A stretch of 64,000 bases of DNA. It comes from a virus (lineage: Duplodnaviria; Caudoviricetes). Below are positions 6,893 to 63,983 of this stretch, one piece after another. Under the pieces are notes generated by a model. It had not been told where the DNA came from and searched no databases. It saw only the letters and a program-made list of their open reading frames with translations. How positions within the stretch are numbered: the first letter of the stretch is position 1; every line of letters starts with the position of its first letter. The DNA lies in IMG/VR virus record IMGVR_UViG_2615840593_000003, positions 64,001 to 128,000 of that record. The stretch is one strand, 5' to 3'. Made by a program: the position numbers and the translations under genes.

Positions 6893-7171
6893 TTAAATAT
6901 ATACGTATTCACCTAACTCGTATATTGCATCGTTTATTATAATACCTATATCATCAGGCATTTTCCTTTTTTCAAAGTATTGTCTAAGATTATACTTCTC
7001 GTCTAAATAGCTGCTCCATTTTGGGTACAGTTTCACTGGTGAATTATCAGGAAATGGTTCTCCTTGAAGATATTCAAGTACCTCTTTAATTTTACTTATA
7101 CATTCATCAGACATCATCCACCAAGAATATACACTTAATAAAACTTCTGTTTTTACTTTCATAAACATCAC
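6893..7171 (-). CDS. Hypothetical phage protein
   Basis: 92 aa ORF coupled to upstream gene. Confidence 0.65.
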   Translation of the reverse strand: MMFMKVKTEVLLSVYSWWMMSDECISKIKEVLEYLQGEPFPDNSPVKLYPKWSSYLDEKYNLRQYFEKRKMPDDIGIIINDAIYELGEYVYI

Positions 7172-7443
7172 TCCTCACAATAGGGTACTGTTACGCCATT
7201 CTTTTCTATCATCATTTGAGTAGGTGCATTTGAAGTGGTAGAGCCACTACCACGTACATAAGTATAGTAGCAACCTGTACTTTTATGCTTAAGTATAACT
7301 GCTTCGCCACGATATACTTCATCTACTGATACAACATTCATTTCTCCATTATTACTTGCACTCACGTTTCCTTCATTACTCTGATTGCATCCGAATAAAA
7401 CTGTGAATCCTAACATTCCTAATATTATTAATTTACGCTTCAT
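7168..7443 (-). CDS. Small lipoprotein (DUF6440-like)
   Basis: Lipobox VLFGC; ILKHKSTGCYY motif. Confidence 0.7.
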   Translation of the reverse strand: MKRKLIILGMLGFTVLFGCNQSNEGNVSASNNGEMNVVSVDEVYRGEAVILKHKSTGCYYTYVRGSGSTTSNAPTQMMIEKNGVTVPYCEE

Positions 7444-7481
7444 TATGTATTTCCTCCTGTAATTTTAATAAAACTCCTCTT

Positions 7482-7916
7482 TTACTTAATTAACTCTGGA
7501 TTTTCATAAATATTCCCAATCGCTTCTAGTTTATCTAATTCTACAGCGATATTTAGTTGCCAACTACCACAAGGCGACTCTAAATAGTAGCCGTAAACTT
7601 CTCTACTCAATCCACCAACTAATTCATCTCTTGAATCATACACATGCATTCCTTTATTAACTACTAATTTTTGACCATGTGTTTCAATGATATCTTTTTC
7701 ATAAATTGCAATTCCATACTTATCATATAAACCTGTGTTTTGCATAATTTCTAAAGCGTCTAAATTCATAACAGCATAACTTCCGTGTAACCATTGTTCG
7801 TTAGAAGGCAGTGCAAATCTTTTTGCGTCAAATCCATCTGCTTTTAAATATAATGCGAAATTCATATAATGCATATTCTTGTTTAACGGTTCCCATACTC
7901 TAAATTCTTTGTTCAT
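7482..7916 (-). CDS. yopX: YopX family protein
   Basis: KEFRVW...IMQNTGLYDKYGIAIYEKDII...IGNIYENPELI. Confidence 0.9.
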   Translation of the reverse strand: MNKEFRVWEPLNKNMHYMNFALYLKADGFDAKRFALPSNEQWLHGSYAVMNLDALEIMQNTGLYDKYGIAIYEKDIIETHGQKLVVNKGMHVYDSRDELVGGLSREVYGYYLESPCGSWQLNIAVELDKLEAIGNIYENPELIK

Positions 7917-18761: not shown

Positions 18762-18830
18762 AACTCGACTAGATGAGTTTAAAAAGACATTAAGTCTAGT
18801 GCGTTCCTTCCATATCGGAAGGAGGTTGTA
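18762..18830 (+). ncRNA. Pistol self-cleaving ribozyme
   Basis: P1 ACUC/GAGU; loop ACUAGA pseudoknots with UCUAGU; UUAAA linker; P2 ACA/UGU; UUAAG; GCGU; P3 CCUUCC/GGAAGG; AGGU cleavage motif. Confidence 0.88.
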
Positions 18831-29209: not shown

Positions 29210-31959
29210 TTAAACTGCAACAATATTATGTTTTCAAACTAACTACCTCTAGACTTGCAGAATTTGATTATGATATTAAAGATTTAACTGTCTCCCATGC
29301 TAGATTAAATGGAGAGCTAGTACAGATCGGTGATAACCAAGTGTTTAGGATGATTCGCAAGATAAAAAATACTAAAACAGAATTTGAATCATTAAATTTA
29401 GCAATCAATGAGCGTAACGATCTTAAGAAGTTAGATTCAAATGATGAAAACTCTATAAAAATAGCACAGAAACAAAAAAACATAGATGACATCTTATTTG
29501 TTCCAGACATTATCAATATTAAAGTTGATGATAAAAAAGTTTATAAAAAGATATTCAAAGAAGGATTCACTGTAAATGGTATCACTTTTAAACGTTTTTG
29601 TAGTGGTGCAGGACAATCGAGACAATCTGTAGCGTCATTCTGTAATATTGACATTATAGAAGAATTAACAAGACGCTTGAATTGTGGATTAAGCATTAAA
29701 GAAATTAACGTTGCAAAGTATAATGCTTACTTCGGGTTATATATGTCTGCTACATACCCTGTTCGAACTCCCAATGTATGCGTCATTCCTGATTATGAGG
29801 ACGAAGAGTTAGTTAAAAAGGTTGATTGGATTGATGATGTAGAAATTGACGGTAAAGATAAGCGTATTGTGTATGAGAAAGATGATTTTATATTTAAGCC
29901 TAATATGTGGGATGGACAAGGATTGGTTTCCCCTACTTTTGCAGAAAAATGGCAAGAGGATTTAAAACTTGAATATCTCCCTTCTCAATTTGTAGTTCGT
30001 AGTAGCTTCGTTAAAGGTGCGTTAGCTGTTTTCGATTTTCATAAGTTTGCACAGGAAGAAGCTAAAACAAATAAAATTAAAGATATTTATGGAGATGAGT
30101 GGGATATTGATGATATAGATGTAATACTCTCTGCCTCTCAGTTCAAAATGAATAAATTTTACTCGTCATGGGAGCAGTTTTTACAACTTCAAGAACATCA
30201 TGGTTTAACTTGGGGAGTTACTAAGGTCAATCCTAAAGCAGATAATGAAGTTAGTTTGCTGAATTACCAATACATGCAATCATTAAATCTAGATAAAGAA
30301 AAAATTCAACAGCTTATCTCCCCTACTGTTGATTGGATTGAAAAGATTTGCCGAGGAGATAAACTTTACACTTTGTTATTCTTACTAGGATCGTCTAATA
30401 AAACAGATACAATTGAAGCCATTTTTAATAAAACAAATAATAACTATGTAAAAGCTATCTTATATAATGACAAATTACTGAATGATCCTTTTATAAAGAA
30501 GAAAATTTATGACAATATCTCAACGAAAATCGATGAAGCTAAGATTGGTCGCATTTGGGTGAATGGGAACTATCAATTCATGATTAGTGACCCTTATGCA
30601 CAAGCTCAATTTGCATTTGGAATGAAAGTTACTGGTCTACTGAATGAATTTGAACATTATTCACATTTCTGGAACGAACTCGAAGTTAATAAAGTAGATG
30701 CCTTGCGTAGCCCATTAGTTGATTTCCATGAGCATAATATGTTGAATCTAGTTGACAATGAAAAAGTAAATGAATGGTTTAAATATCAACCATCAGGAAT
30801 AATTTATAATGTGTGGGGTGTTGACACAATACGTCACTCGGATTCTGATTATGATGGGGATATCGTTTTTACTACAAATAACGAAATTGTGATGGATAAT
30901 ATTGTACCGAATTTAAATGTCATTACTTATGATAAAGCAAGTGCAAAACCACAAAGATTAAATCCGACTAATATTCTGGCAACAGATTTACGTAGCTTTA
31001 ACTCAAAGATAGGTACAATCACTAACTACTCTACTACTTTTATCTCTATGCTTGCTAATTTTAAAGAGAATTCAGATGAATATAAAGAAATACTGAATCG
31101 CATTAAATTGCTACGTCGTTATATTGGTGATTCAATAGATCAAGCAAAAGGAATTAAAACTAAGCCATTCCCTACTGAATGGAAAAAACGTAAATTCGTT
31201 GATAAGGATGATAGCGATGAGGTTAAGCAACAAAAATATTATCACAACAGATTGGTTGCTAATAAGAAACCTTACTTTATGATCTATATTTATGAAAAAT
31301 TAAGAACTGAATATAGAGAACATCGGAGTAAAACTGATCGCACATGTAAAGAGAAATTTGGTTGTAATCTACATCAGCTAATGAACAAGCAAGATAAAAC
31401 CAAAGATGAATCATATTATCTATATAGTTACTATCGTGACATGCCTGTGATTAAGAATGATTCTGTGATGAATATGCTGTGCAAAATGATCGAAGAAATT
31501 GACTTCAATTATAAACGAGTTAAAAATGATGAAAATGTAAATGAAATATTTGATATTCTTTATGATTACGAAATTGGTATTGATGAAGAAAGATTGGAAA
31601 AATTAATTAAATTACGTTCAAAATTCAATAATAAGCGCAACTTCAAATTCAAATCTAATGCTATTGAGAACGTTTCAGAAAATAATTCAGATGAATTAAT
31701 TAATGAATTTTATAATGAAATACGTACTGAAGCATATGAAATTTGCTCAAATATGAAAGAACTAGCAAATCATTTAATTTACATAACTTATAAGCTATAC
31801 CCTAAAGACTCTAAAAATTTCGCATGGCATATTGCAACTGAAGGCATTTTAGAAATACTTGAATCCAAATCAGACATGAATATCGAATTACCAATGAAAG
31901 ATAAAGAAGGAGTTGAGTATTTAGGTAATAGATATTCGTTAAGGAGTGTTGTTGTTTGA
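29206..31959 (+). CDS. yonO: YonO-type single-subunit double-psi-beta-barrel RNA polymerase
   Basis: 917 aa; WDGQG, RSP and catalytic DSDYDGD (DxDGD) motifs; position at head of late module. Confidence 0.92.
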   Translation: MIKLQQYYVFKLTTSRLAEFDYDIKDLTVSHARLNGELVQIGDNQVFRMIRKIKNTKTEFESLNLAINERNDLKKLDSNDENSIKIAQKQKNIDDILFVPDIINIKVDDKKVYKKIFKEGFTVNGITFKRFCSGAGQSRQSVASFCNIDIIEELTRRLNCGLSIKEINVAKYNAYFGLYMSATYPVRTPNVCVIPDYEDEELVKKVDWIDDVEIDGKDKRIVYEKDDFIFKPNMWDGQGLVSPTFAEKWQEDLKLEYLPSQFVVRSSFVKGALAVFDFHKFAQEEAKTNKIKDIYGDEWDIDDIDVILSASQFKMNKFYSSWEQFLQLQEHHGLTWGVTKVNPKADNEVSLLNYQYMQSLNLDKEKIQQLISPTVDWIEKICRGDKLYTLLFLLGSSNKTDTIEAIFNKTNNNYVKAILYNDKLLNDPFIKKKIYDNISTKIDEAKIGRIWVNGNYQFMISDPYAQAQFAFGMKVTGLLNEFEHYSHFWNELEVNKVDALRSPLVDFHEHNMLNLVDNEKVNEWFKYQPSGIIYNVWGVDTIRHSDSDYDGDIVFTTNNEIVMDNIVPNLNVITYDKASAKPQRLNPTNILATDLRSFNSKIGTITNYSTTFISMLANFKENSDEYKEILNRIKLLRRYIGDSIDQAKGIKTKPFPTEWKKRKFVDKDDSDEVKQQKYYHNRLVANKKPYFMIYIYEKLRTEYREHRSKTDRTCKEKFGCNLHQLMNKQDKTKDESYYLYSYYRDMPVIKNDSVMNMLCKMIEEIDFNYKRVKNDENVNEIFDILYDYEIGIDEERLEKLIKLRSKFNNKRNFKFKSNAIENVSENNSDELINEFYNEIRTEAYEICSNMKELANHLIYITYKLYPKDSKNFAWHIATEGILEILESKSDMNIELPMKDKEGVEYLGNRYSLRSVVV

Positions 31960-52249: not shown

Positions 52250-54550
52250 ATGAAAATGGCTACCAATAACCCAATCGAATTGCTAATTGCATTAGGAGTT
52301 AACGATGCTAAGTCCAGAAGCAACATTCAAAGCTACTTAGACAATATAAAAAAAGATTTAAAATTAGATGTTGAATTAAATGCAATAAAAGGCAATGGGA
52401 ACACCTTTGATAATATGCGTAAAAAAATTGAGTCTTTACAAAAGCAAGTATCTCAATTAAATCAAGAGCTAAGTAATATAGGTATGGGTAAGTCTCACTC
52501 CCCTACCCTATCTCAAGGAATCAAACAAGATGTTGTAGAGTCAATGAAGTCTCTGGATCAGTTGAAGAATCACATCAAACAGCAAAATGGTGAATACAGA
52601 ATTAAGACCGTTGTAGATGCACAAGGATTAGAGAAGATTGATTCTGTTGTTACAAGAGTTAAAACTGGTTTAAATCAGATTCAGGAAACGCATCTGAAGC
52701 CAATATTAGATACTAATAACCTAGTCGTGGGATTGAAGCAAGTAGGTCAAACTGTTCACGATATCAGCTCTAAAGATTTAAAATTGAATGTTTCTAAAGG
52801 TATTGAAGAGTTAAATAAGTTTGCTCGACAAGGTGAATTATCTAAAGAACAATATGAGAAGTTTAAAAGCAGTATATCTTCTTCAATCAACAATACTGAG
52901 CTAAGTAAAGTTCTGGAATCGATGAGGAGTATCAACAAAGAAACTGCTCATGAAAACAAGATGCAAAATTCAATGGCTAATATTAACCAACAAGCTATTG
53001 AATTATCTCAAAAGCTAAATCAGTTTACTAAAGATAAAAATAACGCTTTCGATCCCGTTATTGTAGATAAATTTATTGGCAAATTGGATAAATTAGCAGG
53101 TGTAAATTTTGATTCAGTTAAAGGTATGAAATCTGCTAATAATGACTTCTCTTCCGTTGAAAAAGAAATAAATACATATATTAAGCTACAAGAAAAATAT
53201 AAAGATGTTACGGATAATTTAGAATTACTTCAACGTCAAGGTAAAATTACATCATCTGATTTAGCTAAATTCACTCAAGATGCGAAGGTTGCTAATACTG
53301 TAACTGAGTTAAACAATTTAAATAAAGAAATAAATAAATTTGCTAAGAATACACAAATTGACGCTCAAACGTCAAATGCTTTTAAGAATATTGGTAATGA
53401 AGTTGAACAATTAAATAATAAATTTAAAAATGTTACAAACAAGTTCACGGTATCTCCAAATAATACTTTATTTACTCAGATCAAATCAGATATTTATTCT
53501 ATCAATAGTATGAAGATCAATACACCTGAATGTATTAAAACTCTTAATAAATTGATTACTGATACGTCTAAGAATATTCGACAACTCGGACAAGACAGTA
53601 ACAATTTACAGCAATTTGAAACTAAGACTCGTGAAATAAATACCTTGCTACAACAAATGAAAGAGTCTGGATTACTTACTAATAAAGAAATACATAAGTT
53701 TACTGATTCATTATCAAGAATTGAAACTGGTAATTTAGCTAATGTTAATAACCTGTTAACTCAAATGAGTGATAAGTTTAATAAGTTAAAATCCAGCGAA
53801 AAGAATTTAGATACATTTGAAAAACAGCAAAATTCGCTTTCTCGACTTAACAGTGAGTTAACTAGAACTGAAAAACTTTTTCCTCGTACAATGGATAAAT
53901 CCAAAGCTGAAGAGTTAAGAAAAGAAATTGAGAAGCTTAGTAAGTTAAACCTTATTAATCCAACTGCATTAAAAGATAACCAGAAAGAAATAGATAAATT
54001 AAAAGAAAAAGTTAAACAGTTTAACGCTGAATCTACTCAGGCTTCTAAAGGCTCTACAGGAGTACTAGAGGCGTTTGGTGTGGCAATGCAAAAATTCCCA
54101 ATTTGGATGTCGGCAACAACGATTTTCTATGGAGCTGTTCGCACAGCCAAGGAATTTGGAACTGTATTGGTTGATATTGATTCTAAATTAGTATCCATTC
54201 AAAAAGTAGTAGATAACGGTACAGATATGGGTGCAATATTTGATAGAGCAACTCAATCTGCTGAGAAATTTGGACAATCAATTTCTCAAGCGTTAGATGC
54301 CTATATCGAATTTGCACGACAAGGATATAAAGGTGCTGAGTTAGGGACTCTTGCAGACGCAGGTTTAGTTGCTTCTAATGTAGGCGAGATCTCAGCACAG
54401 CAAGCAAGTGAGTACATGACGGCAAGTCTCGTGCAATGGAAGAAAGATGCATCAGAGGCTATGGGTATTATTGATAGTTGGAATAACATTTCCAACAATT
54501 TCGCAACAACGACAGAAAAGTTAGCTCGTGGTCAAGCTCGCGCAGGCGCT
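52250..54550 (+). CDS. Tape measure protein, exon 1
   Basis: Coiled-coil then TMP core (FARQG..., IIDSWNNISNNFATTTEKLARG); ends GCU at the intron 5' splice site. Confidence 0.9.
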
Positions 54551-54825
54551 TAATAAAATAGGCATTCGTAGAAGCGATTCTACGTCTAAACTTCCCTAAA
54601 CGGTGGAACTCTCTTTGAGACAATACCGTGCTAAATCGAAATAAATATTTTCGTAAATGCCGAACGACTAGTAAGACCTATTTATATAGGCATACACTAC
54701 AAGCTAATGGTAGTGGAAATGGGAAGGCTCTCAATGAGAGTTTGATATAGTCTACTCTTTATGGTGACATAAAGCAGTTCATAAGAGAACGATATAAGTT
54801 TTGCGAACTTATATGAATATAAAGG
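54551..54825 (+). ncRNA. Group I intron 1 (ORF-less, 275 nt, IA-like)
   Basis: P1 GCU|UA/UAGGC with U.G; P3 CUUCCC/GGGAAG; P7 GACUA/UAGUC; two hairpins between P7 and P3; terminal G; removal restores frame. Confidence 0.9.
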
Positions 54826-54906
54826 ACTGCCAATGCTATGGGACTTGAGTATGACCAACTCAATGCAATTATCGGAACCGTTACAGCGTCAACCAAACAA
54901 TCGGGT
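54826..54906 (+). CDS. Tape measure protein, exon 2 (27 codons)
   Basis: TANAMGLEYDQLNAIIGTVTASTKQSG bridges the TMP core between exons 1 and 3. Confidence 0.88.
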
Positions 54907-55314
54907 AAACTTTATCGCCCCTTTGCACAGCAATGTGCATAGCAAACCCTGAATATGCTGGGAACTCCTTAGAGCCATCATTAGTAGTTATATTTAGAAA
55001 TTTATATAACACCTCAAAATATGAAGGATTGGACAATCAGCAGAGATAGACCTAAGTGTAATTTACATATGGTAAGCTCTCAACGACTATCAAGGGGTAA
55101 CTCATAATTAAATTAAAATTAATCACATTCCACTTTTTAATAAACAAAATACATAAAATCATATTTTTACATTGTGCATAATTATATATTATGTTAATAT
55201 TTAACTATAGGGATTGATTAGGGAGTAGTTAACCTAATTGACAAGTAAAGCCTCCTAACTTTACTTCCATATTTAATATAATTAGGAAAATTACTGTAGG
55301 AGGTAATTTAATTT

Positions 55315-57156
55315 ATGTGTGAAAATACATATGTAAACATTCAAACTAGTGAAGTTTTAGACTTAAACAGACTGGAAGATATAAAATCTAATGCATTATT
55401 AAAACACTCCCCTCACCTATTCGAAGAATGGGATTTTGAGAAGAATAATGAATTGGGATTGGACATATACAATGTTACAAAAGGTAGTCAGAAAAAAGCT
55501 TGGTGGTACTGTACTAAATGTAAAAGTAAGTATGATATGGAAGTAGTATACCGCAAAAAAGGTTCTAATTGTCCATTTTGCTCAGGAAGAAGAGTGAACA
55601 ATACGAATTCATTAAAAACTATTAAGCCATTATTGGCTGAAGAATGGGATTATGTCAGAAATAACAAGTCACCAAGCGATGTTACATGTAATTCTAGAGA
55701 AGTTGTATGGTGGAAATGCATAGACTGCAAAGAGTCATATGATATGGCAGTTTATAATAAATCAAAAGGTAAAGGCTGTCGTTACTGTAGTGGAAGAACA
55801 GTATCGTTATCAAACTGTCTTGCAACTAAAGATTTAAAGTTAGCAAAAGAATGGCATCAGAAGCTAAACGGCGAATTAACTCCTTATGATGTTACTTGTG
55901 GAGAAAGTAGAGTTGTTTGGTGGCTATGTCCAGATTGCGAAAGTTCTTATAACATGAGTTTAAATGACAGAACTTCTAAAAAATGCAATTGTCCTTATTG
56001 TAATGGTCGAAGAGTAAATATAACAAATTCTTTAAAGTCAATGAACACTGTAATAGCATCTCAATGGCATCCAACAAAGAATGGTGATTTGACTACAGAG
56101 AGTATACATTATCATTCTTCTGAAGTTGTCTGGTGGTTAGGAGAATGTGGTCATGAATGGGAAAACGCAGTAAGGAATAGGAGATTTGGAAATGCAGATT
56201 GTCCAGAATGTAGTAAATTATCTAATAAAGCACCTCACATTGCACGTCTCTTACTTAATAAAAGTGAATCATGTGAATTCACTGTAGGCAGTAATAAAAA
56301 GGTTGACTGGCAATGCGATTGCGGACAAATAGTAAAAAATAAAACTATAAATGAAATTTGTAGTAAGGGTTATTTACCATGTGCGAATTGTTCAGATGGC
56401 AAATCGTATCCTGAAAAGTACATGTTCACTGTTTTAAAATTATTGAAGGTGGATTTTGAATGGGAGAAAGTTTTTGAGTGGTCGAACAACAAAAGGTACG
56501 ATTTTTATATAGAATATTTAGGAAGTAAAATATTAATAGAATGTCACGGCATGCAACACTATGAATCTAGTTTCGAATACTTAGGCAGTAGAACACTAAT
56601 AGAAGAAATAGAAAATGATGCAGTTAAATATAAAATGGCAATCAGTAATGGTATAGATAAATATATTATTATTGACTGTAGAAAATCTTCATCTACATTT
56701 ATAAAAAACTCCATACTAAACAGTGAACTAGTTAAGATATTTGATATAAAAAACTTAGAATGGAATAAAGTTTCATTATTGGCAGAAAAAAGCCTAGTAT
56801 TATACATCAATGAAATATGGAACAATGGTAACAAGAGTATAAAAAATATATCTAAAGAGATGAATTTATGCTCAGCCACTGTAACTTCGTATTTAAAAAG
56901 AGGTATGGAAAATGGGTGGAATGATTATTCTCCTAATAAATCAAGGAAAAATGGCAGTAAGTCAAGAAAGAAGGAAATTGTCAAGATTGATTACGATACT
57001 ATTGTTATTTTTGAAAGTGCTAGTAAAGCATACCTTGATACCAACATAGACTCTTCTAGTATTATTGCAGTTTGTAGAGGTAAGAGAAAAACAGCAGGTG
57101 GATTTAAATGGATGTATCTAGAGGATTATGAAAAAGAATATGGAAAACTTTCATGA
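55315..57156 (+). CDS. Intron-encoded homing endonuclease (zinc-ribbon repeats, Vsr/PD-(D/E)XK-like nuclease, NUMOD1)
   Basis: Repeated EW...N...VWW.C..C...CPYC units; SYPE...YDFY...IECHGMQH; C-terminal CRGKRKTAGGFKW. Confidence 0.85.
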   Translation: MCENTYVNIQTSEVLDLNRLEDIKSNALLKHSPHLFEEWDFEKNNELGLDIYNVTKGSQKKAWWYCTKCKSKYDMEVVYRKKGSNCPFCSGRRVNNTNSLKTIKPLLAEEWDYVRNNKSPSDVTCNSREVVWWKCIDCKESYDMAVYNKSKGKGCRYCSGRTVSLSNCLATKDLKLAKEWHQKLNGELTPYDVTCGESRVVWWLCPDCESSYNMSLNDRTSKKCNCPYCNGRRVNITNSLKSMNTVIASQWHPTKNGDLTTESIHYHSSEVVWWLGECGHEWENAVRNRRFGNADCPECSKLSNKAPHIARLLLNKSESCEFTVGSNKKVDWQCDCGQIVKNKTINEICSKGYLPCANCSDGKSYPEKYMFTVLKLLKVDFEWEKVFEWSNNKRYDFYIEYLGSKILIECHGMQHYESSFEYLGSRTLIEEIENDAVKYKMAISNGIDKYIIIDCRKSSSTFIKNSILNSELVKIFDIKNLEWNKVSLLAEKSLVLYINEIWNNGNKSIKNISKEMNLCSATVTSYLKRGMENGWNDYSPNKSRKNGSKSRKKEIVKIDYDTIVIFESASKAYLDTNIDSSSIIAVCRGKRKTAGGFKWMYLEDYEKEYGKLS

Positions 57157-57184
57157 GTAGGGCTAACTCCCCTACTCTTTTTTT
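57155..57184 (+). terminator. Intrinsic terminator inside intron 2
   Basis: GAGTAGGG-ctaactc-CCCTACTC followed by T7. Confidence 0.7.
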
Positions 57185-57308
57185 ATTTATCTCACCTTAT
57201 TAAGCAGTGGAATGTGATTAAAGGTGATTTATATTATGAGTTAATGGTATAGTCTACTCCCACTTCTTTGTGAAGTGTTAAAATATAGCGAAAGCTAGGG
57301 TATATTTG

Positions 57309-60300
57309 GATGAAGTTGGTAACTTCGTAAAAAATGTGCTACCTCGTTTAGTTAGTGCACCTGCTCAAGATGCATTAAGTATGGTTAATGTTTCTCTAAC
57401 AGACAAACAAGGAAACATGCGTGACATCATTCAGGTTTATACTGAAGTAGCTAATAAAGTTAAAGATCTGAATGATACTGAACGGATTTCAGTAATGGAA
57501 GGTCTTGCAGGAAAATATCACATATCTCGTATGCAAGCATTACTAGATGACTTAGGTTCTGCTAAATCAATGTACAGAGAAATGTATGAGACATCTAAAA
57601 ATTCAGCAGGTTCAGCAATGCGAGAAAATGAAATCTACATGAAATCATTAGAAGCACGTATTGCATTAACACGAGTGGAATTCGAGAAGCTCGCAGTCTC
57701 AATAGGAGACGCTTTTCTGACAGATGGCATGGTATCATTCCTTCAATTAGCTTCAGGTGGATTAGGTGTAATAACGAGTCTTGTGAATGGAGTTGGATTA
57801 CTCCCTGTAGTTTTAGGTACAACAGGAATGGCAACTTTTTTATTATCTACCAAGTTTAAAGAACTAAGCGTAAGTGTCGGAAGCTCTATTGTTTCATTAG
57901 TAGGATTTAGAGGAACTGCGACAGCAGTAACTACGGCTACCAACCTATTATCTGTAGCGACAAAAGGTCTAGGAAATGCGTGGAAAGGATTCTTATCATC
58001 TCTTGGCGTTGGACTACCTCTTGTTGCCATCGGTTTTGTTATTGAAAAACTAATGAGTAAGATGGGTGAAGCTCGTCAAAAAGCCGAAGAATTAGAATCT
58101 GCTAACAAGGAAATGCTTAATTCATATAGTCAAAATGCTTCTAATATAGATGAGTTATCAAAGAAGTATGAAGAATTAGAAGAAAAAATGGCATTACCTA
58201 ATGTAGATTCTAAAACTATTAATGAATATCGTGACATCCAAAATGAAATAGGTACAAAGCTTCCTTCTTTGGTTACTGGGGAAGATTCGTATGGTAACAA
58301 ATTAATAGGTACTAGTAATGCACTTAAAGTTAAAATCGATTTACTCAAACAGCAACTAGAGATAGACAAGCAGATAGCTGAAGCAGAAGCAAATTCTAGA
58401 AGAAATGAAGACATTGAAACTTATAATTCAGATATGAGTTCGGCTAATGATAAAATGCAAGGACGTCTACAGGTATTAGCAAACTATGATGAAAATTCTT
58501 TAAAATGGGCGGATAAATTTGATATTCCTGATAAATTAGTTATTAGATTAGCTGATGAAAATGGAAAACCATTATTAACTACTGCTGATGAGATTGCAAA
58601 AAAATTAAATGATATTAAAACTAAACACCTTGAAGCTAAAAATTCAGGTGATGATGGCTTAGTAGAGTACTATGGTAAATTATTATTCATGTTAGAAGAT
58701 ACGTATAAGGCTGTATTACCACATGAACTTGAGATGAATAAATCAACTGCTAACCTAAAATCTCAATATGTAGCATCCTTAAATGCAATGATAGGAACAA
58801 ACTCATCATTGCAAGATTCTACAAAAGAAATGGCTCAAGTCTTCTCATCACAATTACTTTCAATGTCTGATTCCAGTAACATTAATGATTTAAAAAGTGG
58901 CTTAGAAACACTATTCTCTTATAACGGTAATGATGAACTATCTAGCAAGGCAAATGAGATTACTACCAATATTTCTAAATCATTCAGCGATATGGCTAAT
59001 GCTACAGAAGAAGATTTCGGAAAATCTTCAGCAAGCGTCAAAACTATGTTGGATGGATTGCCAAAAAGTCTAGAGGCAGTTATTAGTAAAGAAAAAGACA
59101 GAAAAGCTGTAATGGATTTACTAAACAAGACATATGAAAATGCCATTACAGAGCATAGTAAACTGGCTAACGAAGCTAAAGCGACTGGCAAAAGCTTCGA
59201 TGAAGTAAGAGCAGGTATGGATGCAGTCAGTGAAGGTGCAGAGCAATCTTCTGAATCAGTATCGGAATTAGCCTCAAAAATGCAAGACTTCAAAGATGTA
59301 ACTGAGCAAATGGCAGGTGTATCTCAATCTGGAGTCGATGCGTTAAACGACCTAATTTTCCAATATGACTCACTTACTAACAAATTAGCAGGTTACACAC
59401 AACAACAACTTCAAGATATTTACACTAAAGAAAATTTAACATCCAAAGAACGAGAAGTTAAAAAGGTTCTAGATGATCGTGTAGCTATAATGAAGGAATT
59501 ATCCAGTGTCTACCCTGACTTATTAGGTAAAGATGGTAAAGCTATTGTCTTATCAGATGAGAAGCGTAGTGCTATCATAGCAGAAAATAAAGCAAATGAA
59601 ATACTATTAAAAGGTTACAAACTTGCTCGTGATGGAAAGTTAACTGCTGAACAGCAAGCTACATTAGCATCTGCTAGTGGGGCTAAAGCACGTATCAATA
59701 ACTTAAAAGTAGAAATTTCGATGCTTGAAAAGTATGTCAGAGCTAATGAAATAGCATTAGGTTCTGCTGTAGCAATTAATGCAATGCCGTTATCTGGCGT
59801 TGCAGGTTCAGCCATGAAAATGGCAATGGAAGCACAACAAAGTATACTTCAAGGTAGACTTGCAGGAGCTAGAGCAGAATTAGACGGACTTGCAGGTAGT
59901 CTTAGTACTAATATTGGAAATATAAGTGATTTCTCTGCTGAAATCGAAAATTCGTCTAAATCAACTAATAGTAATACTAAAGCTACAAAAGAGAACAATG
60001 CTGAAAAAGAGAAATCCATTTGGATTACTGACAAGTATAAGCAAAAATTAGAAGAGCTTAATTTAGCAATCGAAAAACAGCAAAAAATACAAGCTAGATT
60101 TCCTGAACATTCTAAGGAGTACCGCAAATCACTAGAAGCTCAAATTAAACTTGAAAAAGAAAAATTAGCACTCCAAGAAAAGCAAGTCAAAGCAATACAA
60201 TCTCAAATTGCATCAGGTAAAATTCAGCAAACTGGTAACATTTCAGTTAATTCCTCAAACGGTAAAATTAATGGATATAACGGTAAAATTTCTTCTGGTT

Positions 60301-63300
60301 ATGGTGAACGTACAGACAATCATCGTGGTGTTGATATTGCAATGCCTACTGGTTCCCGAGTAGATGCCCCTGTTTCTGGCAAAGTAATTCGTGCAGGTTC
60401 TGCAACTTCAAAACAAAACAATATGCACTGGTCATACGGTAATGTTGTGATGATTGAAGACCAACAAGGTATTCGACATTTACTAGCTCACCTTGACAAA
60501 ACAATGGTTAAGATTGGTGACTATGTAGAAGCAGGAGCTCAAATTGGTAATAGTGGTAGCACTGGTAAGTCTACGGGTCCCCACTTACACTACGAACAAA
60601 ATAATTCAAAGGGACAGACAATTAACCCTACTGCTACATTAAATTCTATTCGTGCAGGCAGTACCTCTACCCCATCTGCATCGAGTCAACAAGCTACAGT
60701 TTGGAACTACTTTAAAAACAAAGGCTTAAATGATAAAGCTATTGCAGGACTTATGGGTAACATCCAACAGGAATCAACCTTTAATACAAACGCAGGCAAG
60801 AACGCTCCTAAGAATGCTTACGGATTAGTTCAATGGAGAGATGGTCGCAGAGAAGGACTTAACTCTTACGCAAAAAGTATGGGTAAAAGTGCTAATGATT
60901 TACAAGTTCAATTAGACTACATCTGGAAAGAATTAAATGATAAAGAGAAAAGCGCTCTTGCTTCCCTTCAACGTTCTGATTTGTCATCTTCGCAACATGC
61001 TTCTGAATTTGAAAGATTATTTGAGCGTTCAGGCGGTTCGCAAGTTGGAAAACGTCAAAACTATGCTAATCAATATTACAGTCAATATGCAGGTACTAAT
61101 GGCGGTGCAGGAGTTGGTATTGACTCAGGACAACAAGCTATTGACCAAGCTAAATCTGATTTTTTAAGCTTACAAAAAGACGTACTTAACTCTAAGGAAA
61201 CAATTGAAAACTTAAATGACATGTTGGTTAAAGCTAACGTTGCTTATTACGATGACCTTATTAATGGTATAGATCGTTCTATTAATAAGTCTAATGTTTT
61301 AGCCGAACAACAATTAGAGCACTCACAAGCATATCGAGATGAATTAGATAAACAAACTAAACATCTAAAATACAAACAATCTTTACTACATAAAGAAGCT
61401 AATTACATTCGTGAGCAACTTAAACGTACTGACATCTCCCCTGCTTACAAAGATGAATTAACTAATCAACTAAGCGAATTATCTTTAGCTTGGTGGGATG
61501 TTAACGAAAGTATTACGGAAGTAGACGAGAAGATTCAAAATAGTAAAGTTGAATCAATCATAGTTAAATATGAAGAACTACGTCAAATACAAGATAAAGC
61601 TATTAACAGTGAAAAAGCAAAAATTGAAGAATTGGACACTTCTTCTGCTAGATATGTAAAAACTCTCGCAAATATAAACAATGCAATGAGAGAAAAGCAA
61701 AATTCCAATCGCTATGAATTGACTCAGTTAACTGCTTTGGTAAATGGCAATAAGCTATCTGGTGAAGCTTTAGAATCTGCTAAAAACCGTATAGAAGAAT
61801 TGACTACTGGTATTAAAGAATTACAAATTGCCATTCAGAATGGTGATTACGATATTTTAATTAATATTAAAACTCAATCTGACGAAAAAGTCGGTTTAAT
61901 GGAATCTGCTATAAATCAAGCTGAAGCAATTCGTAAAATGTTTGACGAAGGTTCTGCCGATTACGTTAAGTATACAAAAATTATTCTTGAAGAGTATGAA
62001 AAAATAGCTGATCAGCATTTAGTAACTAGAGATGCTTTAGCTGAAGAATTACAGCAACGTGATATTACTGCCGAACGTATCAAAGAAGTAAAAAAACTAA
62101 TAACAGATGAACAACTTGCATATCTGAACGCTACCCTATCAATTAAAGATTATACAAAGCAAGTCGAGGAAGCTAATAAATCTCAACTCGAGAGTATTGC
62201 AGATAAAGCTATCAATGCATATAAGGAATATATCCAAGAGCGTAGAGATGAACATATAAAAACACTAGATGATGAAATTAAGAGAGAAAATGAAAAGCAT
62301 GAGCAAATCATAAAAAATCTTAATGATGAGATGGATTTATTTAGAAAGAATGTAGATGAGAAGCTAAAACTTATTGATCGTCAAGAATCGCAGCGAAGTT
62401 ATGACATGGAAATTTCTGATTTAGAAAAAGAACGTAATGATATTCAAAGTCAATACGATAATCTAGCCTTAGATAAATCTCATGAAGGTAAGGCGAAACG
62501 CAAAAAGCTTAAAGAACAACTAGATGAAATTGACAAGCAAATTGAAGAAAAACGCCATAATCGTGAAATTGAATTACGTAAAGAGTCTTTAAATGATGCA
62601 CTGGAAACTAAAGAAGAAGAAGTAAATGAAAAAATTGAGCTTCAAGATAAAGAGCATGAGAATGTAATCAATAAGATTAATCGTGAAAAAGAATATTGGG
62701 AAAAGCATTATAAAGATCTGCTTAATGATGAACGAAAGTTTGCCGAAATAAGAGAAGCTATATTATCTGGTCATTTTGAAAAAGTAGATGCTGAATTCAA
62801 AAAGTTTGCGGATGAAATGAAAGCTACAATGCCTGAACTTGCCGATACGCTTGATGACACAATGAAAGCTGTAGGTATGACGATTCGTCAAAATGTAATT
62901 GATAATTTGGAAGAAGCACTCAAATTATTTGAAGACTTCAACAAAAGTCAAATTTCAAAGGATGATGGCTCATTCAATTTCAATCCTAATAACGGCAATG
63001 AAGTTAAATCATCTAATGGTAATCTATCCAAAGGCGATTTACAAGTATTACTAGGTAAATTCTTGTATGACAATGTATCTGCACAAACATCTGGAAAAGA
63101 TAAAGATACTGTTCGTCAAACGGCTACACAATTAGCTGAACAGGGCAGAAAAAATGGTAGTACTCAATTCACTAAAGATGACGTTAATTTTAATGATTCG
63201 ATTAAAGGTCTTACTCAAGCAGATATGGATGCTTTATATGAATATTTTGATAGCAATAAAGGCATTTTAGGTGGAAAATATGACGGCTTCATTGATCAAT

Positions 63301-63983
63301 TCATCGGTAGCATTTCTGGTAATAAACATGAATCTACAAATGACGGAAGTTTATCAAAAGCCGATATGCAAGTTATGTTAGGTAAATTTATTTATGAAAA
63401 GGTTGTACCTGATAAATCATTAAACGCCAATACTAAAACAGCATTAAAAGCTAAAGCAGATGGAGTTGCTGCACAAGGAAGAAATGGTGATTCAAAGCTT
63501 TCAGAAAGTGTAACATTCGATTCTATCAAGAGCACATACTCATCGCTACAAGTTAATCAATTGAAATCGTTCTTTGAATCTAATCTAGGTATGATTGATA
63601 ATGCTACAACTAGAGATTTAATGCAGAAAAAGATAGCTTCACTTGATACAGGTGGATTTATGAATTGGGCTGGAACAGGTATTGACGGTAAAGGTGGGAA
63701 AGCAATTATTGCTCATCCTAATGAAATCATGTTGAATAAAGTTGATACAAAAGGATTTTTCAGTTCAATAAATGTAATGGACAAAATTATGTCTAGTCTA
63801 TCCCCTCTCCTATCTAAGTTTACTCCACCACAAAAAACATCACATATTGTTAGTGGAGATACTTATGGCGATATTAAAATAAACTTCAATATTGACAAAA
63901 TGAACGGTGACAGAAACGATTTAAATAAATTTAATAAAATGATTGATGATGATCTATTACGTAGGAAAGGAATGAGAAAGTAA
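57309..63983 (+). CDS. Tape measure protein, exon 3, with M23 peptidase and phage tail lysozyme domains (YomI/CwlP-like)
   Basis: DEVGNFVK..., LAGKYH; HRGVD...STGPHLHYE (M23); IAGLMGNIQQES...YGLVQW (lysozyme); spliced product about 3018 aa. Confidence 0.9.
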   Translation, partial: DEVGNFVKNVLPRLVSAPAQDALSMVNVSLTDKQGNMRDIIQVYTEVANKVKDLNDTERISVMEGLAGKYHISRMQALLDDLGSAKSMYREMYETSKNSAGSAMRENEIYMKSLEARIALTRVEFEKLAVSIGDAFLTDGMVSFLQLASGGLGVITSLVNGVGLLPVVLGTTGMATFLLSTKFKELSVSVGSSIVSLVGFRGTATAVTTATNLLSVATKGLGNAWKGFLSSLGVGLPLVAIGFVIEKLMSKMGEARQKAEELESANKEMLNSYSQNASNIDELSKKYEELEEKMALPNVDSKTINEYRDIQNEIGTKLPSLVTGEDSYGNKLIGTSNALKVKIDLLKQQLEIDKQIAEAEANSRRNEDIETYNSDMSSANDKMQGRLQVLANYDENSLKWADKFDIPDKLVIRLADENGKPLLTTADEIAKKLNDIKTKHLEAKNSGDDGLVEYYGKLLFMLEDTYKAVLPHELEMNKSTANLKSQYVASLNAMIGTNSSLQDSTKEMAQVFSSQLLSMSDSSNINDLKSGLETLFSYNGNDELSSKANEITTNISKSFSDMANATEEDFGKSSASVKTMLDGLPKSLEAVISKEKDRKAVMDLLNKTYENAITEHSKLANEAKATGKSFDEVRAGMDAVSEGAEQSSESVSELASKMQDFKDVTEQMAGVSQSGVDALNDLIFQYDSLTNKLAGYTQQQLQDIYTKENLTSKEREVKKVLDDRVAIMKELSSVYPDLLGKDGKAIVLSDEKRSAIIAENKANEILLKGYKLARDGKLTAEQQATLASASGAKARINNLKVEISMLEKYVRANEIALGSAVAINAMPLSGVAGSAMKMAMEAQQSILQGRLAGARAELDGLAGSLSTNIGNISDFSAEIENSSKSTNSNTKATKENNAEKEKSIWITDKYKQKLEELNLAIEKQQKIQARFPEHSKEYRKSLEAQIKLEKEKLALQEKQVKAIQSQIASGKIQQTGNISVNSSNGKINGYNGKISSGYGERTDNHRGVDIAMPTGSRVDAPVSGKVIRAGSATSKQNNMHWSYGNVVMIEDQQGIRHLLAHLDKTMVKIGDYVEAGAQIGNSGSTGKSTGPHLHYEQNNSKGQTINPTATLNSIRAGSTSTPSASSQQATVWNYFKNKGLNDKAIAGLMGNIQQESTFNTNAGKNAPKNAYGLVQWRDGRREGLNSYAKSMGKSANDLQVQLDYIWKELNDKEKSALASLQRSDLSSSQHASEFERLFERSGGSQVGKRQNYANQYYSQYAGTNGGAGVGIDSGQQAIDQAKSDFLSLQKDVLNSKETIENLNDMLVKANVAYYDDLINGIDRSINKSNVLAEQQLEHSQAYRDELDKQTKHLKYKQSLLHKEANYIREQLKRTDISPAYKDELTNQLSELSLAWWDVNESITEVDEKIQNSKVESIIVKYEELRQIQDKAINSEKAKIEELDTSSARYVKTLANINNAMREKQNSNRYELTQLTALVNGNKLSGEALESAKNRIEELTTGIKELQIAIQNGDYDILINIKTQSDEKVGLMESAINQAEAIRKMFDEGSADYVKYTKIILEEYEKIADQHLVTRDALAEELQQRDITAERIKEVKKLITDEQLAYLNATLSIKDYTKQVEEANKSQLESIADKAINAYKEYIQERRDEHIKTLDDEIKRENEKHEQIIKNLNDEMDLFRKNVDEKLKLIDRQESQRSYDMEISDLEKERNDIQSQYDNLALDKSHEGKAKRKKLKEQLDEIDKQIEEKRHNREIELRKESLNDALETKEEEVNEKIELQDKEHENVINKINREKEYWEKHYKDLLNDERKFAEIREAILSGHFEKVDAEFKKFADEMKATMPELADTLDDTMKAVGMTIRQNVIDNLEEALKLFEDFNKSQISKDDGSFNFNPNNGNEVKSSNGNLSKGDLQVLLGKFLYDNVSAQTSGKDKDTVRQTATQLAEQGRKNGSTQFTKDDVNFNDSIKGLTQADMDALYEYFDSNKGILGGKYDGFIDQFIGSISGNKHESTNDGSLSKADMQVMLGKFIYEKVVPDKSLNANTKTALKAKADGVAAQGRNGDSKLSESVTFDSIKSTYSSLQVNQLKSFFESNLGMIDNATTRDLMQKKIASLDTGGFMNWAGTGIDGKGGKAIIAHPNEIMLNKVDTKGFFSSINVMDKIMSSLSPLLSKFTPPQKTSHIVSGDTYGDIKINFNIDKMNGDRNDLNKFNKMIDDDLLRRKGMRK

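What the first reader, a model, noticed from the sequence alone, without database searches (positions are those of the whole stretch)
52250..63983. Tape measure gene split by two group I introns around an 81-nt micro-exon
Removing 54551-54825 and 54907-57308 gives ...RGQARAGA|TANAMG...STKQSG|DEVGNFVK..., a continuous TMP of about 3018 aa. Both 5' sites end in U with a U.G pair in P1 and both introns end in G. The two differ in architecture (intron 1 has extra hairpins after P7, intron 2 does not), implying independent invasions. Phage group I introns mostly occupy DNA metabolism genes, so two in a tail-length ruler makes virion assembly splicing-dependent. Skipping exon 2 would stay in frame (27 aa shorter), and unspliced RNA would yield a 767-aa truncated product.
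Basis: partly seen in the sequence, partly recalled or inferred. Interest (0 to 1): 0.75.

Follow-up and report, generated by a model that had tools for sequence, protein, structure and literature searches.

The report
Two group I introns split tape-measure gene
The tail tape-measure gene of this SPbeta-like prophage is cut into three pieces by two self-splicing (group I) introns that sit only 81 bases apart, a real but already known kind of arrangement in phage tail genes.

Summary
Removing 54551-54825 (275 nt) and 54907-57308 (2402 nt) joins three open frames into a 3018-aa tape measure protein (TMP). The 27-aa micro-exon fills the 27 profile positions missing between the two halves of the TMP domain PF10145. 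Intron-less homologues align without gaps across both junctions, with exactly 81 nt between them.

Intron 1 matches Rfam Intron_gpI over the full model (48.0 bits, cut-off 50, E 2e-11) and resembles thymidylate-synthase introns of Bacillus phages. Intron 2 gets no Rfam hit. It has P1 with a U.G pair, a 9-bp P10, P2-P9 and a terminal G. It is homologous to the annotated Intron_gpI in the TMP of phage phiCD211, with compensatory changes in P2, P3, P4, P6a and one P9 hairpin. Its P8 loop holds an intact 613-aa endonuclease-like ORF: four DUF4379 zinc fingers, a Vsr/I-Bth0305I-like PD-(D/E)xK fold and a NUMOD-like tail.

The closest relative (88% aa) lacks intron 1, has intron 2 with a different cargo, and has a third intron 68 codons downstream. 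Three further relatives have none. Independent gain or loss is therefore supported. Splicing itself is not shown.

Group I introns in TMP genes, two per gene, were published in 2008, so this is a new member of a known kind.

The parts
52250..54550 (+). TMP exon 1 (767 aa). It ends in the first half of the PF10145/TIGR01760 tape-measure domain. Its last base, U54550, forms the U.G pair of P1.
54551..54825 (+). Intron 1: 275 nt, no ORF, td-like (IA2-like) group I intron. Helices: P1 54548-52/54559-63; P2 54567-84 (GCGA loop); P3 54591-96/54721-26; P4 54600-05/54624-29; P5 54609-19; P6/P6a 54630-60; P7 54666-70/54748-52; P7.1 54677-90; P7.2 54695-54715; P8 54727-41; P9 54757-74 (GUGA loop); two further 3' hairpins 54777-90 and 54792-54814; terminal G at 54825. 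Helix names are my assignment from the Rfam alignment and the MFE fold.
54826..54906 (+). TMP exon 2: micro-exon of 81 nt, 27 aa (TANAMGLEYDQLNAIIGTVTASTKQSG). It has no start codon or ribosome-binding site of its own. It is 78-92% identical to the same 27 residues of four IMG/VR relatives.
54907..57308 (+). Intron 2: 2402 nt group I intron without P7.1/P7.2. Helices: P1 54903-06/54917-20 (U54906.G54917); P10 54908-16 with exon 3 57309-17 (9 bp); P2 54924-39 (GCAA loop); P3 54946-50/55094-98; P4 54956-61/55037-42; P5 region 54966-55033; P6/P6a 55043-81; P7 55085-90/57249-54; P8 55098-55134/57206-57243 with the ORF in its loop; P9 57261-77; GAAA hairpin 57286-97; terminal G at 57308.
55315..57156 (+). 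Intron 2 ORF, 613 aa, intact. It has four DUF4379 treble-clef zinc fingers (aa ~30-300), a PD-(D/E)xK nuclease-like domain (aa ~365-460; invariant D396, E409, G412, H415, N434, D435, K438 in 36 aligned sequences), an HTH and an I-HmuI-type NUMOD-like C-terminus. It is a putative homing endonuclease.
55250..55305 (+). Hairpin that pairs the ORF's Shine-Dalgarno sequence (UAGGAGG, ~10 nt before ATG 55315) with an upstream CCUCCUA. It may limit translation of the endonuclease. Support is weak (z = -2.3).
57155..57187 (+). Intrinsic-terminator-like hairpin (8 pairs, 5 G-C) followed by a T run, overlapping the ORF stop codon by two bases. It lies inside intron 2, upstream of the 3' ribozyme half and of exon 3.
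57309..63983 (+). TMP exon 3 (2224 aa plus stop). It starts with the second half of PF10145 and carries Peptidase_M23 and Phage_lysozyme2 domains. An in-frame TTG at 57306 would let gene callers annotate it as a separate 2225-aa gene.

Best explanation
The tape measure gene of an SPbeta-like provirus is interrupted, in phase 0 and 81 nt apart, by two unrelated group I introns. Both lie inside the most conserved TMP domain (PF10145/TIGR01760). The late transcript must lose both introns by guanosine-initiated self-splicing to give mRNA for the 3018-aa TMP. Unspliced RNA stops at the TAA that opens intron 1 and would give a 767-aa fragment. Intron 1 is a small ORF-less td-like ribozyme, so it can move only passively or with an endonuclease supplied in trans. 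Intron 2 carries in its P8 loop an intact endonuclease-like gene (zinc-finger array, Vsr-like PD-(D/E)xK domain, NUMOD-like tail). That protein presumably cuts intron-less TMP alleles near the insertion site and drives homing by recombinational repair. The anatomy, the exact junctions, the homology to known introns and the presence/absence pattern among relatives are shown here. Splicing, endonuclease activity and homing are inferred.
For: Junctions and protein continuity:
- The exon arithmetic gives 3018 aa.
- The PF10145 profile is split at positions 104/132, leaving 27 positions for the 27-aa exon.
- Alignment across both junctions to four intron-less TMPs has no gap at the junctions, and the spacing in those genomes is exactly 81 nt.
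- 59 of the 60 sampled rows (of 163 matching phage records) span both sites in one uninterrupted tblastn piece.

Intron 1:
- RF00028 matches the full model 1-253 at 48.0 bits, E 2e-11 (same hit).
- blastn finds 621 phage records, including introns in thymidylate synthase genes of Bacillus phages and many places in AR9/PBS1.

Intron 2:
- The 5' half matches the misc_RNA 'Intron_gpI' in the phiCD211 TMP and an intron in the yonO-like gene of phage c-st.
- The 3' half matches 26 Enterococcus and Bacillus phage records, several in terminase genes.
- The fold of the ORF-deleted intron gives P1 with U.G, a 9/9 P10 to exon 3, P2, P4-P9 and a long P8 that brackets the ORF.
- In a 4-intron alignment, P2, P3, P4, P6a and the GAAA hairpin keep pairing through changes on both strands in phiCD211; in c-st only the GAAA hairpin does so fully (P3 4 of 5). 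P7 is identical in the window, L009 and phiCD211; c-st differs at one base (5 of 6 pairs).
- In L009 a U-to-C change in the guide turns a U.G of P10 into C-G.

Mobility:
- L009 (88% aa) has site 1 empty, site 2 filled by the same intron with another cargo, and a third intron that scores 53 bits against RF00028, above the cut-off.
- L010, L011 and L012 have no intron at sites 1 and 2.

Intron ORF:
- Pfam DUF4379, 4 stretches, 212.7 bits.
- PHROGs annotated as homing or intron-encoded nucleases.
- 7514 representative clusters match at E<=1e-3.
- The domain model (pLDDT 93.5) is closest to PD-(D/E)xK nucleases: I-Bth0305I (prob 1.00, TM 0.56/0.61) and Vsr (prob 0.99, TM 0.65/0.47).
Against: There is no RNA evidence of splicing. 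Intron 1 scores 2 bits below Rfam's gathering cut-off, and it was missed in the whole-window gathering scan and in a 3.3-kb E-value scan. Intron 2 gave no RF00028 match in either half at E<=10, so its assignment rests on homology, comparative pairing among only four sequences (two nearly identical) and hand-assigned helices. P1 is short in both introns (5 bp and 4 bp), and intron 1 has no evident P10. A terminator-like hairpin at 57155-57187 lies between the ORF and exon 3 and could reduce transcription into exon 3. The record is a provirus estimated 88% complete, so decay cannot be excluded. No Foldseek match of the nuclease domain reached E<=0.001.
Confidence: 0.9

Rival explanations
1. The insertions are former group I introns that no longer splice. 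The TMP is then a pseudogene in a decaying provirus, and only the 767-aa fragment is made.
For: The record is a provirus at 88% estimated completeness. Intron 1 is below the Rfam cut-off and intron 2 has no Rfam hit. A terminator-like hairpin lies inside intron 2. No splicing data exist.
Against: All three exons are open over 9 kb, with no stop or frameshift. Every core helix of both introns is intact, with the canonical U.G pair and terminal G. The 613-aa intron ORF is intact and keeps all invariant residues of its family. The homologous intron in L009 shows a pairing-preserving change in P10.
Confidence: 0.07
2. The gene is genuinely split at the protein level. Separate N-terminal and C-terminal TMP polypeptides are translated and assemble without RNA splicing, and the 81-nt piece is unused.
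For: An in-frame TTG at 57306 opens a 2225-aa ORF. phiCD211 is annotated with two TMP CDSs.
Against: The break falls inside one conserved domain, and the 27 residues that complete it are preserved at 78-92% identity to four relatives, although they have no start codon or ribosome-binding site. The TTG at 57306 lies in the last 3 nt of a structured intron, with no Shine-Dalgarno sequence visible upstream. All close homologues are single polypeptides.
Confidence: 0.02
3. The insertions are another kind of element, such as a group II intron, an IS element or an intein.
For: None specific.
Against: Inteins would be in frame, but both insertions carry stops. No group II or other Rfam family matched. 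No transposase was found; the only ORF is a nuclease-like protein with a NUMOD-like domain. The insertions show homology to annotated group I introns.
Confidence: 0.01

Closest known systems
TMP-IVS1, IVS2 and IVS3 group I introns in tape measure genes of Bacillus cereus-group prophages (Tourasse and Kolsto 2008, PMC2504315; section 8 read)
   Same: These are group I introns of phage type (IA1/IA2) inside prophage TMP genes. There are several insertion sites per gene and up to two introns in one TMP. Some have no complete endonuclease gene, and their distribution among related prophages is patchy.
   Different: The host lineage differs (an SPbeta-like 3018-aa TMP versus lambdaBa01-like >1200-aa TMPs). 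I could not compare insertion positions because the figures are not held. An 81-nt exon between two introns is not mentioned in the section read. Here the endonuclease-like ORF is of the DUF4379/PD-(D/E)xK type.
Intron_gpI annotated in the TMP of Clostridium (Clostridioides) phage phiCD211, NC_029048.2 28891-29156
   Same: It is homologous to intron 2 (blastn 73.9% over 88 nt). It shares P2-P9 with compensatory changes and lacks P7.1/P7.2. It also sits in the conserved TMP domain of a large temperate phage.
   Different: It is ORF-less and about 270 nt long. By my reading it is inserted roughly 10 codons downstream of the window's site 2, not at the same position. Only one intron is annotated there.
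Multi-intron phage genes with exon skipping: Twort orf142 (three introns, tail tube gene) and the SIOphi DNA polymerase (PMC11878797, discussion passages read). The Twort paper itself was not held.
   Same: Several group I introns lie in one phage gene, including a tail gene. Skipping of the exon between two introns was observed experimentally (47.2% of SIOphi polymerase transcripts).
   Different: No expression data exist for this window, and whether the 81-nt exon is ever skipped is unknown. The guide sequence of intron 2 (GCCC) does not match the end of exon 1 (GCGCU).
td-type introns of Bacillus phages and of T4-like phages (relatives of intron 1)
   Same: Intron 1 aligns at about 80% identity in two pieces (48% of the query) to sequences inside thymidylate synthase genes of Bacillus phages KKP_4047/4048/4050 and TimeGriffin, and matches 107 Escherichia phage records. 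It has a full-length RF00028 architecture with P7.1/P7.2.
   Different: The host gene is structural rather than nucleotide-metabolic. P1 is adapted to the TMP sequence.
I-Bth0305I, prototype of the EDxHD (Vsr-like) homing endonuclease family (PMC3239194, passages read; PDB 3R3P)
   Same: It is an intron-encoded phage protein whose nuclease domain is the best compact structural match of the intron 2 ORF (prob 1.00, TM 0.56/0.61, 22% identity). It also combines the nuclease with NUMOD-type DNA-binding modules.
   Different: The domain order is reversed: NUMOD is N-terminal in I-Bth0305I and C-terminal here. The window's ORF adds four DUF4379 zinc fingers. There was no sequence-level match to 3R3P at E<=1. 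The conserved residues (D...E-x-H-G-x-x-H...N-D-x-x-K) are not shown to equal the EDxHD motif.

Membership tests
Group I intron (Rfam RF00028): intron 1 | Match to the covariance model of the conserved core P1-P9 | tested here: inconclusive
   48.0 bits against a gathering score of 50. E is 2e-11 and the full model 1-253 is matched at 54541-54774 (same hit). The hit did not appear in the whole-window gathering scan or the 3.3-kb E-value scan.
Group I intron: intron 1 | The 5' exon ends in U paired with G of the internal guide (P1), and the intron ends in G | tested here: met
   U54550.G54561 lies within P1 (GCUUA/UAGGC). The last intron base, G54825, is as required.
Group I intron: intron 2 | Match to the covariance model RF00028 | tested here: not met
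   There was no RF00028 match at E<=10 in the 5' half, the 3' half or the 3.3-kb region. The 2-kb ORF in P8 splits the core, and the model is known to give only partial hits in such cases (PMC11878797, methods passage).
Group I intron: intron 2 | Core helices P3-P8 in canonical order, supported by comparison with homologous introns | tested here: met
   The intron is homologous to an annotated Intron_gpI. In phiCD211, P2, P3, P4, P6a and the GAAA hairpin keep 100% canonical pairs despite changes on both strands; in c-st only the GAAA hairpin does so fully (P3 4 of 5). P7 (GACUAU/AUAGUC) is identical in the window, L009 and phiCD211; c-st has GACUAC (5 of 6 pairs). Only 4 sequences were compared, and two are near-identical.
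Group I intron: intron 2 | U.G pair at the 5' splice site in P1, P10 with the 3' exon, terminal G | tested here: met
   P1 is GGGU/GCCC with U54906.G54917. P10 is AACUUUAUC/GAUGAAGUU, 9 of 9 pairs. The terminal G is G57308.
Group I intron: both introns | Excision restores an uninterrupted host gene at a position empty in homologues | tested here: met
Group I intron: both introns | Guanosine-dependent self-splicing of the RNA | not testable with these tools
   This needs in vitro transcription and splicing, or cDNA from an induced lysogen.
Phage tail tape measure protein (PF10145 PhageMin_Tail / TIGR01760 tape_meas_TP901) | Match above the curated cut-off, position after the tail genes, and great length | tested here: met
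   PF10145 scores 41.5 bits (cut-off 33.2) on exon 1 alone, and 28.5 bits on exon 3 for the other half of the profile. TIGR01760 scores 51.5 bits (cut-off 28.8). Homologues are annotated as TMP or yomI. M23 peptidase and tail lysozyme domains are present, as in SPbeta-type TMPs.
EDxHD / Vsr-like homing endonucleases (I-Bth0305I): intron 2 ORF | Vsr-like PD-(D/E)xK fold with the composite EDxHD catalytic residues | tested here: inconclusive
   The fold is supported, since the best compact matches are 3r3p and 1cw0, but every Foldseek E-value is above 0.001. There is no sequence match to PDB chains of this family. The correspondence of the invariant D/E/H/H/D/K residues to the EDxHD motif was not established.
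HNH, GIY-YIG and LAGLIDADG homing endonucleases: intron 2 ORF | Pfam catalytic domain of the family | tested here: not met
   No such Pfam domain was found at E<=0.01 on the whole ORF or at E<=10 on aa 327-613. One PHROG hit carries the name 'HNH endonuclease' (phrog_559), but that is only an annotation label.

The most novel reading that the evidence does not exclude
The 81-nt exon between the two ribozymes might be skipped in a fraction of transcripts, as seen for the SIOphi polymerase and Twort orf142. The prophage would then make two in-frame TMP isoforms (3018 and 2991 aa), and tail assembly would be gated by the efficiency and order of two independent ribozymes. The terminator-like hairpin inside intron 2 might be read through only by the phage's own YonO-type RNA polymerase. 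The intron 2 ORF might be the prototype of a very large, uncharacterised homing-endonuclease architecture (zinc-finger array, Vsr-like nuclease, C-terminal NUMOD).
Probability: 0.1. Interest if true: 0.55.

Novelty: new member of a known kind. Interest (0 to 1): 0.3.

Why it matters
For annotation, gene callers will report three genes here (767, 613 and 2225 aa) and miss the 27-aa exon. Recognising the introns restores a single 3018-aa TMP.

For biology, the locus adds a documented case in which the conserved TP901-type TMP domain is an intron hot spot. One lineage uses three sites within about 100 codons. It also shows the same intron carrying different cargo in close relatives.

The intron ORF belongs to a family with thousands of members that has no Pfam nuclease model, and no paper I could find names it as a homing endonuclease. 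A cleavage assay on the intron-less TMP allele would give that family a function.

The basic phenomenon, group I introns in tape measure genes, has been in print since 2008. The surprise for a specialist is therefore small.

Tried and rejected
- The Rfam gathering scan of the whole window found only a Pistol ribozyme.
- The 3.3-kb E-value scan found no group I hit, even for intron 1, which is a filter effect.
- The two halves of intron 2 gave no RF00028 hit.
- megablast of 53800-58200 against phages gave one 80-nt hit only, in BpSp.
- Sequencing runs: no RNA holder is listed, and the single holder is a DNA run that may be the source sample.
- The Twort paper PMC22036 is not held.
- The SPBc2 locus L005 gave no significant alignment to the 267-aa junction piece. 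SPbeta-type yomI genes do match the LC76P1 piece in one uninterrupted stretch.
- The genome-contig scan gave only two distant relatives (50% and 27%), so the host genus stays unknown.
- NCBIfam gave nothing useful for the intron ORF.
- The PDB sequence search matched only the DUF4379 fingers, in mitoribosomal proteins.
- Foldseek on the 274-residue model was diluted by its multi-domain nature, so a domain-only model was made.
- The promoter-like scan inside intron 2 found 19 sites against 14.6 +/- 4.2 expected, which is not informative.
- Exon skipping through the guide of intron 2 was considered. The guide GCCC pairs with GGGU of exon 2 but not with GCGCU of exon 1, so this route looks unfavourable. 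That is an inference only.
- Supplementary files of papers were not consulted. Supplementary Table S1 of PMC11878797, a list of split phage genes, may name further TMP cases.

Full report
**Where the window lies.** The window is bases 64001-128000 of a 154,764-bp IMG/VR provirus record with an estimated completeness of 88%. The record encodes an uninterrupted YonO-type RNA polymerase homologue (34% identity, E 1.7e-74, 922-aa open frame; window ~29218-30822). The genes upstream of the finding include a virion structural protein with an Ig-like domain, an integrase-like gene and an anti-repressor-like gene. An integrase next to the TMP is also seen in the Staphylococcus and Mammaliicoccus SPbeta-like phages. 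The closest isolated phage is Lysinibacillus phage LC76P1. The host genus could not be fixed.

**The observation.** Three + strand ORFs occupy the region: 52250-54553 (767 aa), 55315-57156 (613 aa) and 57306-63983 (2225 aa from an in-frame TTG).
- Taking exons 52250-54550, 54826-54906 and 57309-63983 gives 767 + 27 + 2224 = 3018 aa.
- Pfam PF10145 (PhageMin_Tail) matches exon 1 residues 669-766 to profile positions 2-104 and exon 3 residues 1-68 to positions 132-201. The missing 27 positions equal the length of the micro-exon. TIGR01760 (tape_meas_TP901) also ends at the last residue of exon 1.
- In LC76P1, Mammaliicoccus phi36, Staphylococcus SPbeta-like and Bacillus vB_BcoS-136, the tblastn match to the end of exon 1 and the match to the start of exon 3 are separated by exactly 81 nt.
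- A junction piece built in a script aligns across both junctions without a gap there. Identity is 72% to LC76P1, 48% to phi36, 46% to the Staphylococcus phage and 28% to vB_BcoS-136. The micro-exon reads TANAMGLEYDQLNAIIGTVTASTKQSG; LC76P1 has TAKAVGLEFDQLNALIGTLTARTKQSG.
- With the LC76P1 piece as query, 163 phage records match. Of the 60 rows shown, spread over the ranking, all are single pieces and 59 span both sites. Isolated phages in that collection therefore do not carry introns at these two sites.
- Moving either intron by -1 nt gives the same protein.

**Intron 1 (54551-54825, 275 nt, no ORF).**
- Scanned on its own, it matches Rfam Intron_gpI over the whole model (positions 1-253) at 48.0 bits, E 2e-11. 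That is 2 bits under the gathering score, and reproduced the hit. The wider scans missed it.
- The alignment and an MFE fold agree on the helices. P1 is GCUUA/UAGGC with U54550.G54561. P2 has a GCGA loop. P3 is CUUCCC/GGGAAG. P4, P5 and P6 follow. P7 is GACUA/UAGUC. Two hairpins lie between P7 and the return strand of P3 (P7.1/P7.2). P8 and a P9 with a GUGA loop follow, then two more 3' hairpins before G54825.
- blastn finds similar sequence in 621 phage records. These include places inside thymidylate synthase genes of Bacillus phages (about 80% identity in two pieces, 48% of the query), 12-18 places each in AR9, PBS1 and Internexus, and 107 Escherichia phage records.
- My recollection that its core closely resembles the T4 td intron is recalled and was not tested here.

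**Intron 2 (54907-57308, 2402 nt).**
- Rfam gave nothing for either half. The evidence is homology and anatomy.
- The 5' half matches the feature annotated 'Intron_gpI' that separates two TMP CDSs in Clostridium phage phiCD211. It also matches an ORF-less insertion that splits the yonO-like gene of phage c-st.
- The 3' half matches 26 Enterococcus and Bacillus phage records, several in terminase genes.
- Folding the intron with the ORF region left out gives the following. P1 is GGGU/GCCC with U54906.G54917. The 9 nt of the guide just 5' of it (AACUUUAUC) pair perfectly with the first 9 nt of exon 3 (GAUGAAGUU), forming P10. P2 has a GCAA loop. P4 and an extended P5 region follow, then P6/P6a. 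P7 is GACUAU/AUAGUC. A long P8 (55098-55134 with 57206-57243) has the ORF in its loop. P9 and a GAAA-capped hairpin come before G57308.
- P3 (ACCCU/GGGGU) was assigned by comparison. In a four-intron alignment (window, L009, phiCD211, c-st), the phiCD211 intron keeps P2, P3, P4, P6a and the GAAA hairpin fully paired through changes on both strands; in c-st only the GAAA hairpin does so fully, with P3 at 4 of 5. P7 is identical in the window, L009 and phiCD211, and c-st differs at one base (5 of 6 pairs). P6 and P9 are less well kept.
- The sample is small, and two of the four sequences are near-identical.
- The shared J8/7-P7 motif GNTATAGTCTA occurs only in the two introns in 64 kb.

**The intron ORF.**
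- It is 613 aa and intact, and a Shine-Dalgarno sequence precedes it. That sequence can pair with an upstream CCUCCUA (z = -2.3; 5 of 200 shuffles fold as well).
- It has four DUF4379 treble-clef zinc fingers (212.7 bits) and a weak I-HmuI-type NUMOD-like match at the C-terminus.
- It matches PHROGs annotated as homing endonuclease or intron-encoded nuclease.
- Residues 340-613 match 7514 representative clusters at E<=1e-3 and 1098 at E<=1e-30.
- In 36 aligned sequences, D396, E409, G412, H415, N434, D435 and K438 (full-protein numbering) are invariant.
- An AlphaFold model of residues 361-468 (pLDDT 93.5, pTM 0.84) has an alpha-beta-beta-beta-alpha-beta core. Its PDB neighbours are PD-(D/E)xK nucleases. 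These include I-Bth0305I (prob 1.00, TM 0.56/0.61, rmsd 3.5) and Vsr (prob 0.99, TM 0.65/0.47), and also R2 RLE domains, TnsA and Hjc. No Foldseek E-value is at or below 0.001.
- I-Bth0305I is an intron-encoded phage endonuclease of the Vsr-like 'EDxHD' family, but with NUMODs at the N-terminus (PMC3239194, passages read).
- A full-text search for 'DUF4379' found 7 papers; none of the 5 listed has it in the title or abstract, and none was read for this point. I therefore call the protein a putative homing endonuclease of an undescribed architecture. Its activity is inferred.

**Relatives show gain and loss.** Five IMG/VR loci encode relatives of the exon 1 end.
- L010 (80% aa), L011 (62%) and L012 (50%) have exon 1, the 27 codons and exon 3 contiguous. 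L013 (27%) is also uninterrupted.
- L009, the closest (88%), has site 1 empty (...GCAGGGGCA|ACTGCT...).
- Site 2 of L009 is filled by a 1458-nt intron homologous to intron 2. Identity is 80% over the micro-exon plus the first ~365 nt of the intron and 87% over its last ~130 nt plus the start of exon 3.
- L009 also has a third, 316-nt intron 68 codons into exon 3, a position that is uninterrupted in the window. That intron scores 53 bits against RF00028, above the cut-off.
- In L009 the guide has C where the window has U, which turns a U.G pair of P10 into C-G.
- The L009 copy of intron 2 carries a 140-aa PBECR3 (barnase/EndoU/colicin-like nuclease) ORF instead of the DUF4379 ORF. A 475-aa DUF4379/NUMOD homologue sits free-standing upstream of that TMP, next to ORF6N and PemK/MazF-like genes.

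**How it most likely works.** What is shown is the anatomy, the exact junctions, the homology and the polymorphism. What is inferred follows.
- The late operon is transcribed. In SPbeta it is transcribed by YonO as one operon (PMC5467207, passages read).
- Each ribozyme then folds and splices itself out with a guanosine cofactor, and the 81-nt exon is ligated on both sides.
- Ribosomes on unspliced RNA stop at the TAA that begins intron 1.
- The endonuclease made from intron 2 cuts intron-less TMP alleles of co-infecting or resident relatives and copies the intron in.
- Intron 1 has no endonuclease of its own.
- A terminator-like hairpin with a T run sits at the ORF stop codon, inside the intron and upstream of exon 3. 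It may end transcripts that serve only the endonuclease. YonO lacks the flap domain, which the same paper links to hairpin-dependent pausing and termination. Read-through by the phage polymerase is therefore conceivable, but it is pure inference.

**What is known already.**
[quoted passage not shown] The introns are of subclasses IA1 and IA2, and some lack a complete endonuclease gene. The authors discussed adaptation of P1/P10 to the sites (PMC2504315, section 8, part 1 of 2 read).
- phiCD211 carries an annotated TMP intron.
- Introns in capsid and minor tail genes of Cluster J mycobacteriophages are spliced (PMC3706429, passages read).
- Twort orf142 (tail tube, three introns) and the SIOphi polymerase show exon skipping (PMC11878797, passages read).
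- My only search for TMP introns in print was, with the terms 'group I intron' and 'tape measure': 38 papers, of which 25 were listed. I did not find an 81-nt exon between two TMP introns described, but I read only the passages named above and no supplements.

**Verdict.** The feature is a new member of a known kind. The points of moderate interest are the very short middle exon, the three-site hot spot inside one conserved domain, the cargo swap in the same intron between close relatives, and the uncharacterised endonuclease family.

Noticed in passing
window 18763-18830 (+): Full-length Pistol ribozyme match (RF02679): 63.3 bits against a cut-off of 34.5, E 3.6e-09. It was the only Rfam hit at gathering threshold in the window.
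   Followed up: no
window 57155-57187 (+): Strong intrinsic-terminator-like hairpin with a T run, overlapping the intron ORF's stop codon by two bases. It lies inside intron 2, ahead of exon 3, so late transcription must pass it to make the TMP.
   Followed up: partly
L009 6682-8139, ORF 7143-7565: The homologue of intron 2 in the closest relative carries a 140-aa PBECR3 (barnase/EndoU/colicin E5-D/RelE-like nuclease) ORF instead of the DUF4379 endonuclease-like ORF (Pfam 74.1 bits). The same ribozyme carries a different, RNase-like cargo.
   Followed up: partly
L009 8344-8659: A third group I intron (316 nt; RF00028 53 bits, above the cut-off) lies in the same TMP domain, 68 codons downstream of site 2. 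The corresponding position in the window (57512/57513) is uninterrupted.
   Followed up: yes
L009 532-4215: A 3.7-kb insertion relative to the window lies just upstream of the TMP start. It holds an ORF6N-domain gene, a free-standing 475-aa DUF4379/NUMOD homologue of the intron ORF (38-43% identity) and a PemK/MazF-like toxin gene.
   Followed up: partly
L007 (phiCD211) 2068-2360: About 290 nt lie between the end of the first annotated TMP CDS and the annotated Intron_gpI. A short stretch just before the intron reads like TMP sequence (...GTALKTIG). The phiCD211 TMP may also hold a small exon or a second insertion that is not annotated.
   Followed up: no
L008 (phage c-st) ~2455-2768: The yonO-like RNA polymerase gene of phage c-st is split (annotated as N-terminal and C-terminal halves). 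An ORF-less insertion there is homologous to intron 2 and is not annotated as an intron. A separate 355-aa ORF lies between the halves.
   Followed up: partly
window ~29218-30822 (+): An uninterrupted YonO-type single-chain RNA polymerase homologue (922-aa open frame) marks the provirus as SPbeta-like.
   Followed up: partly
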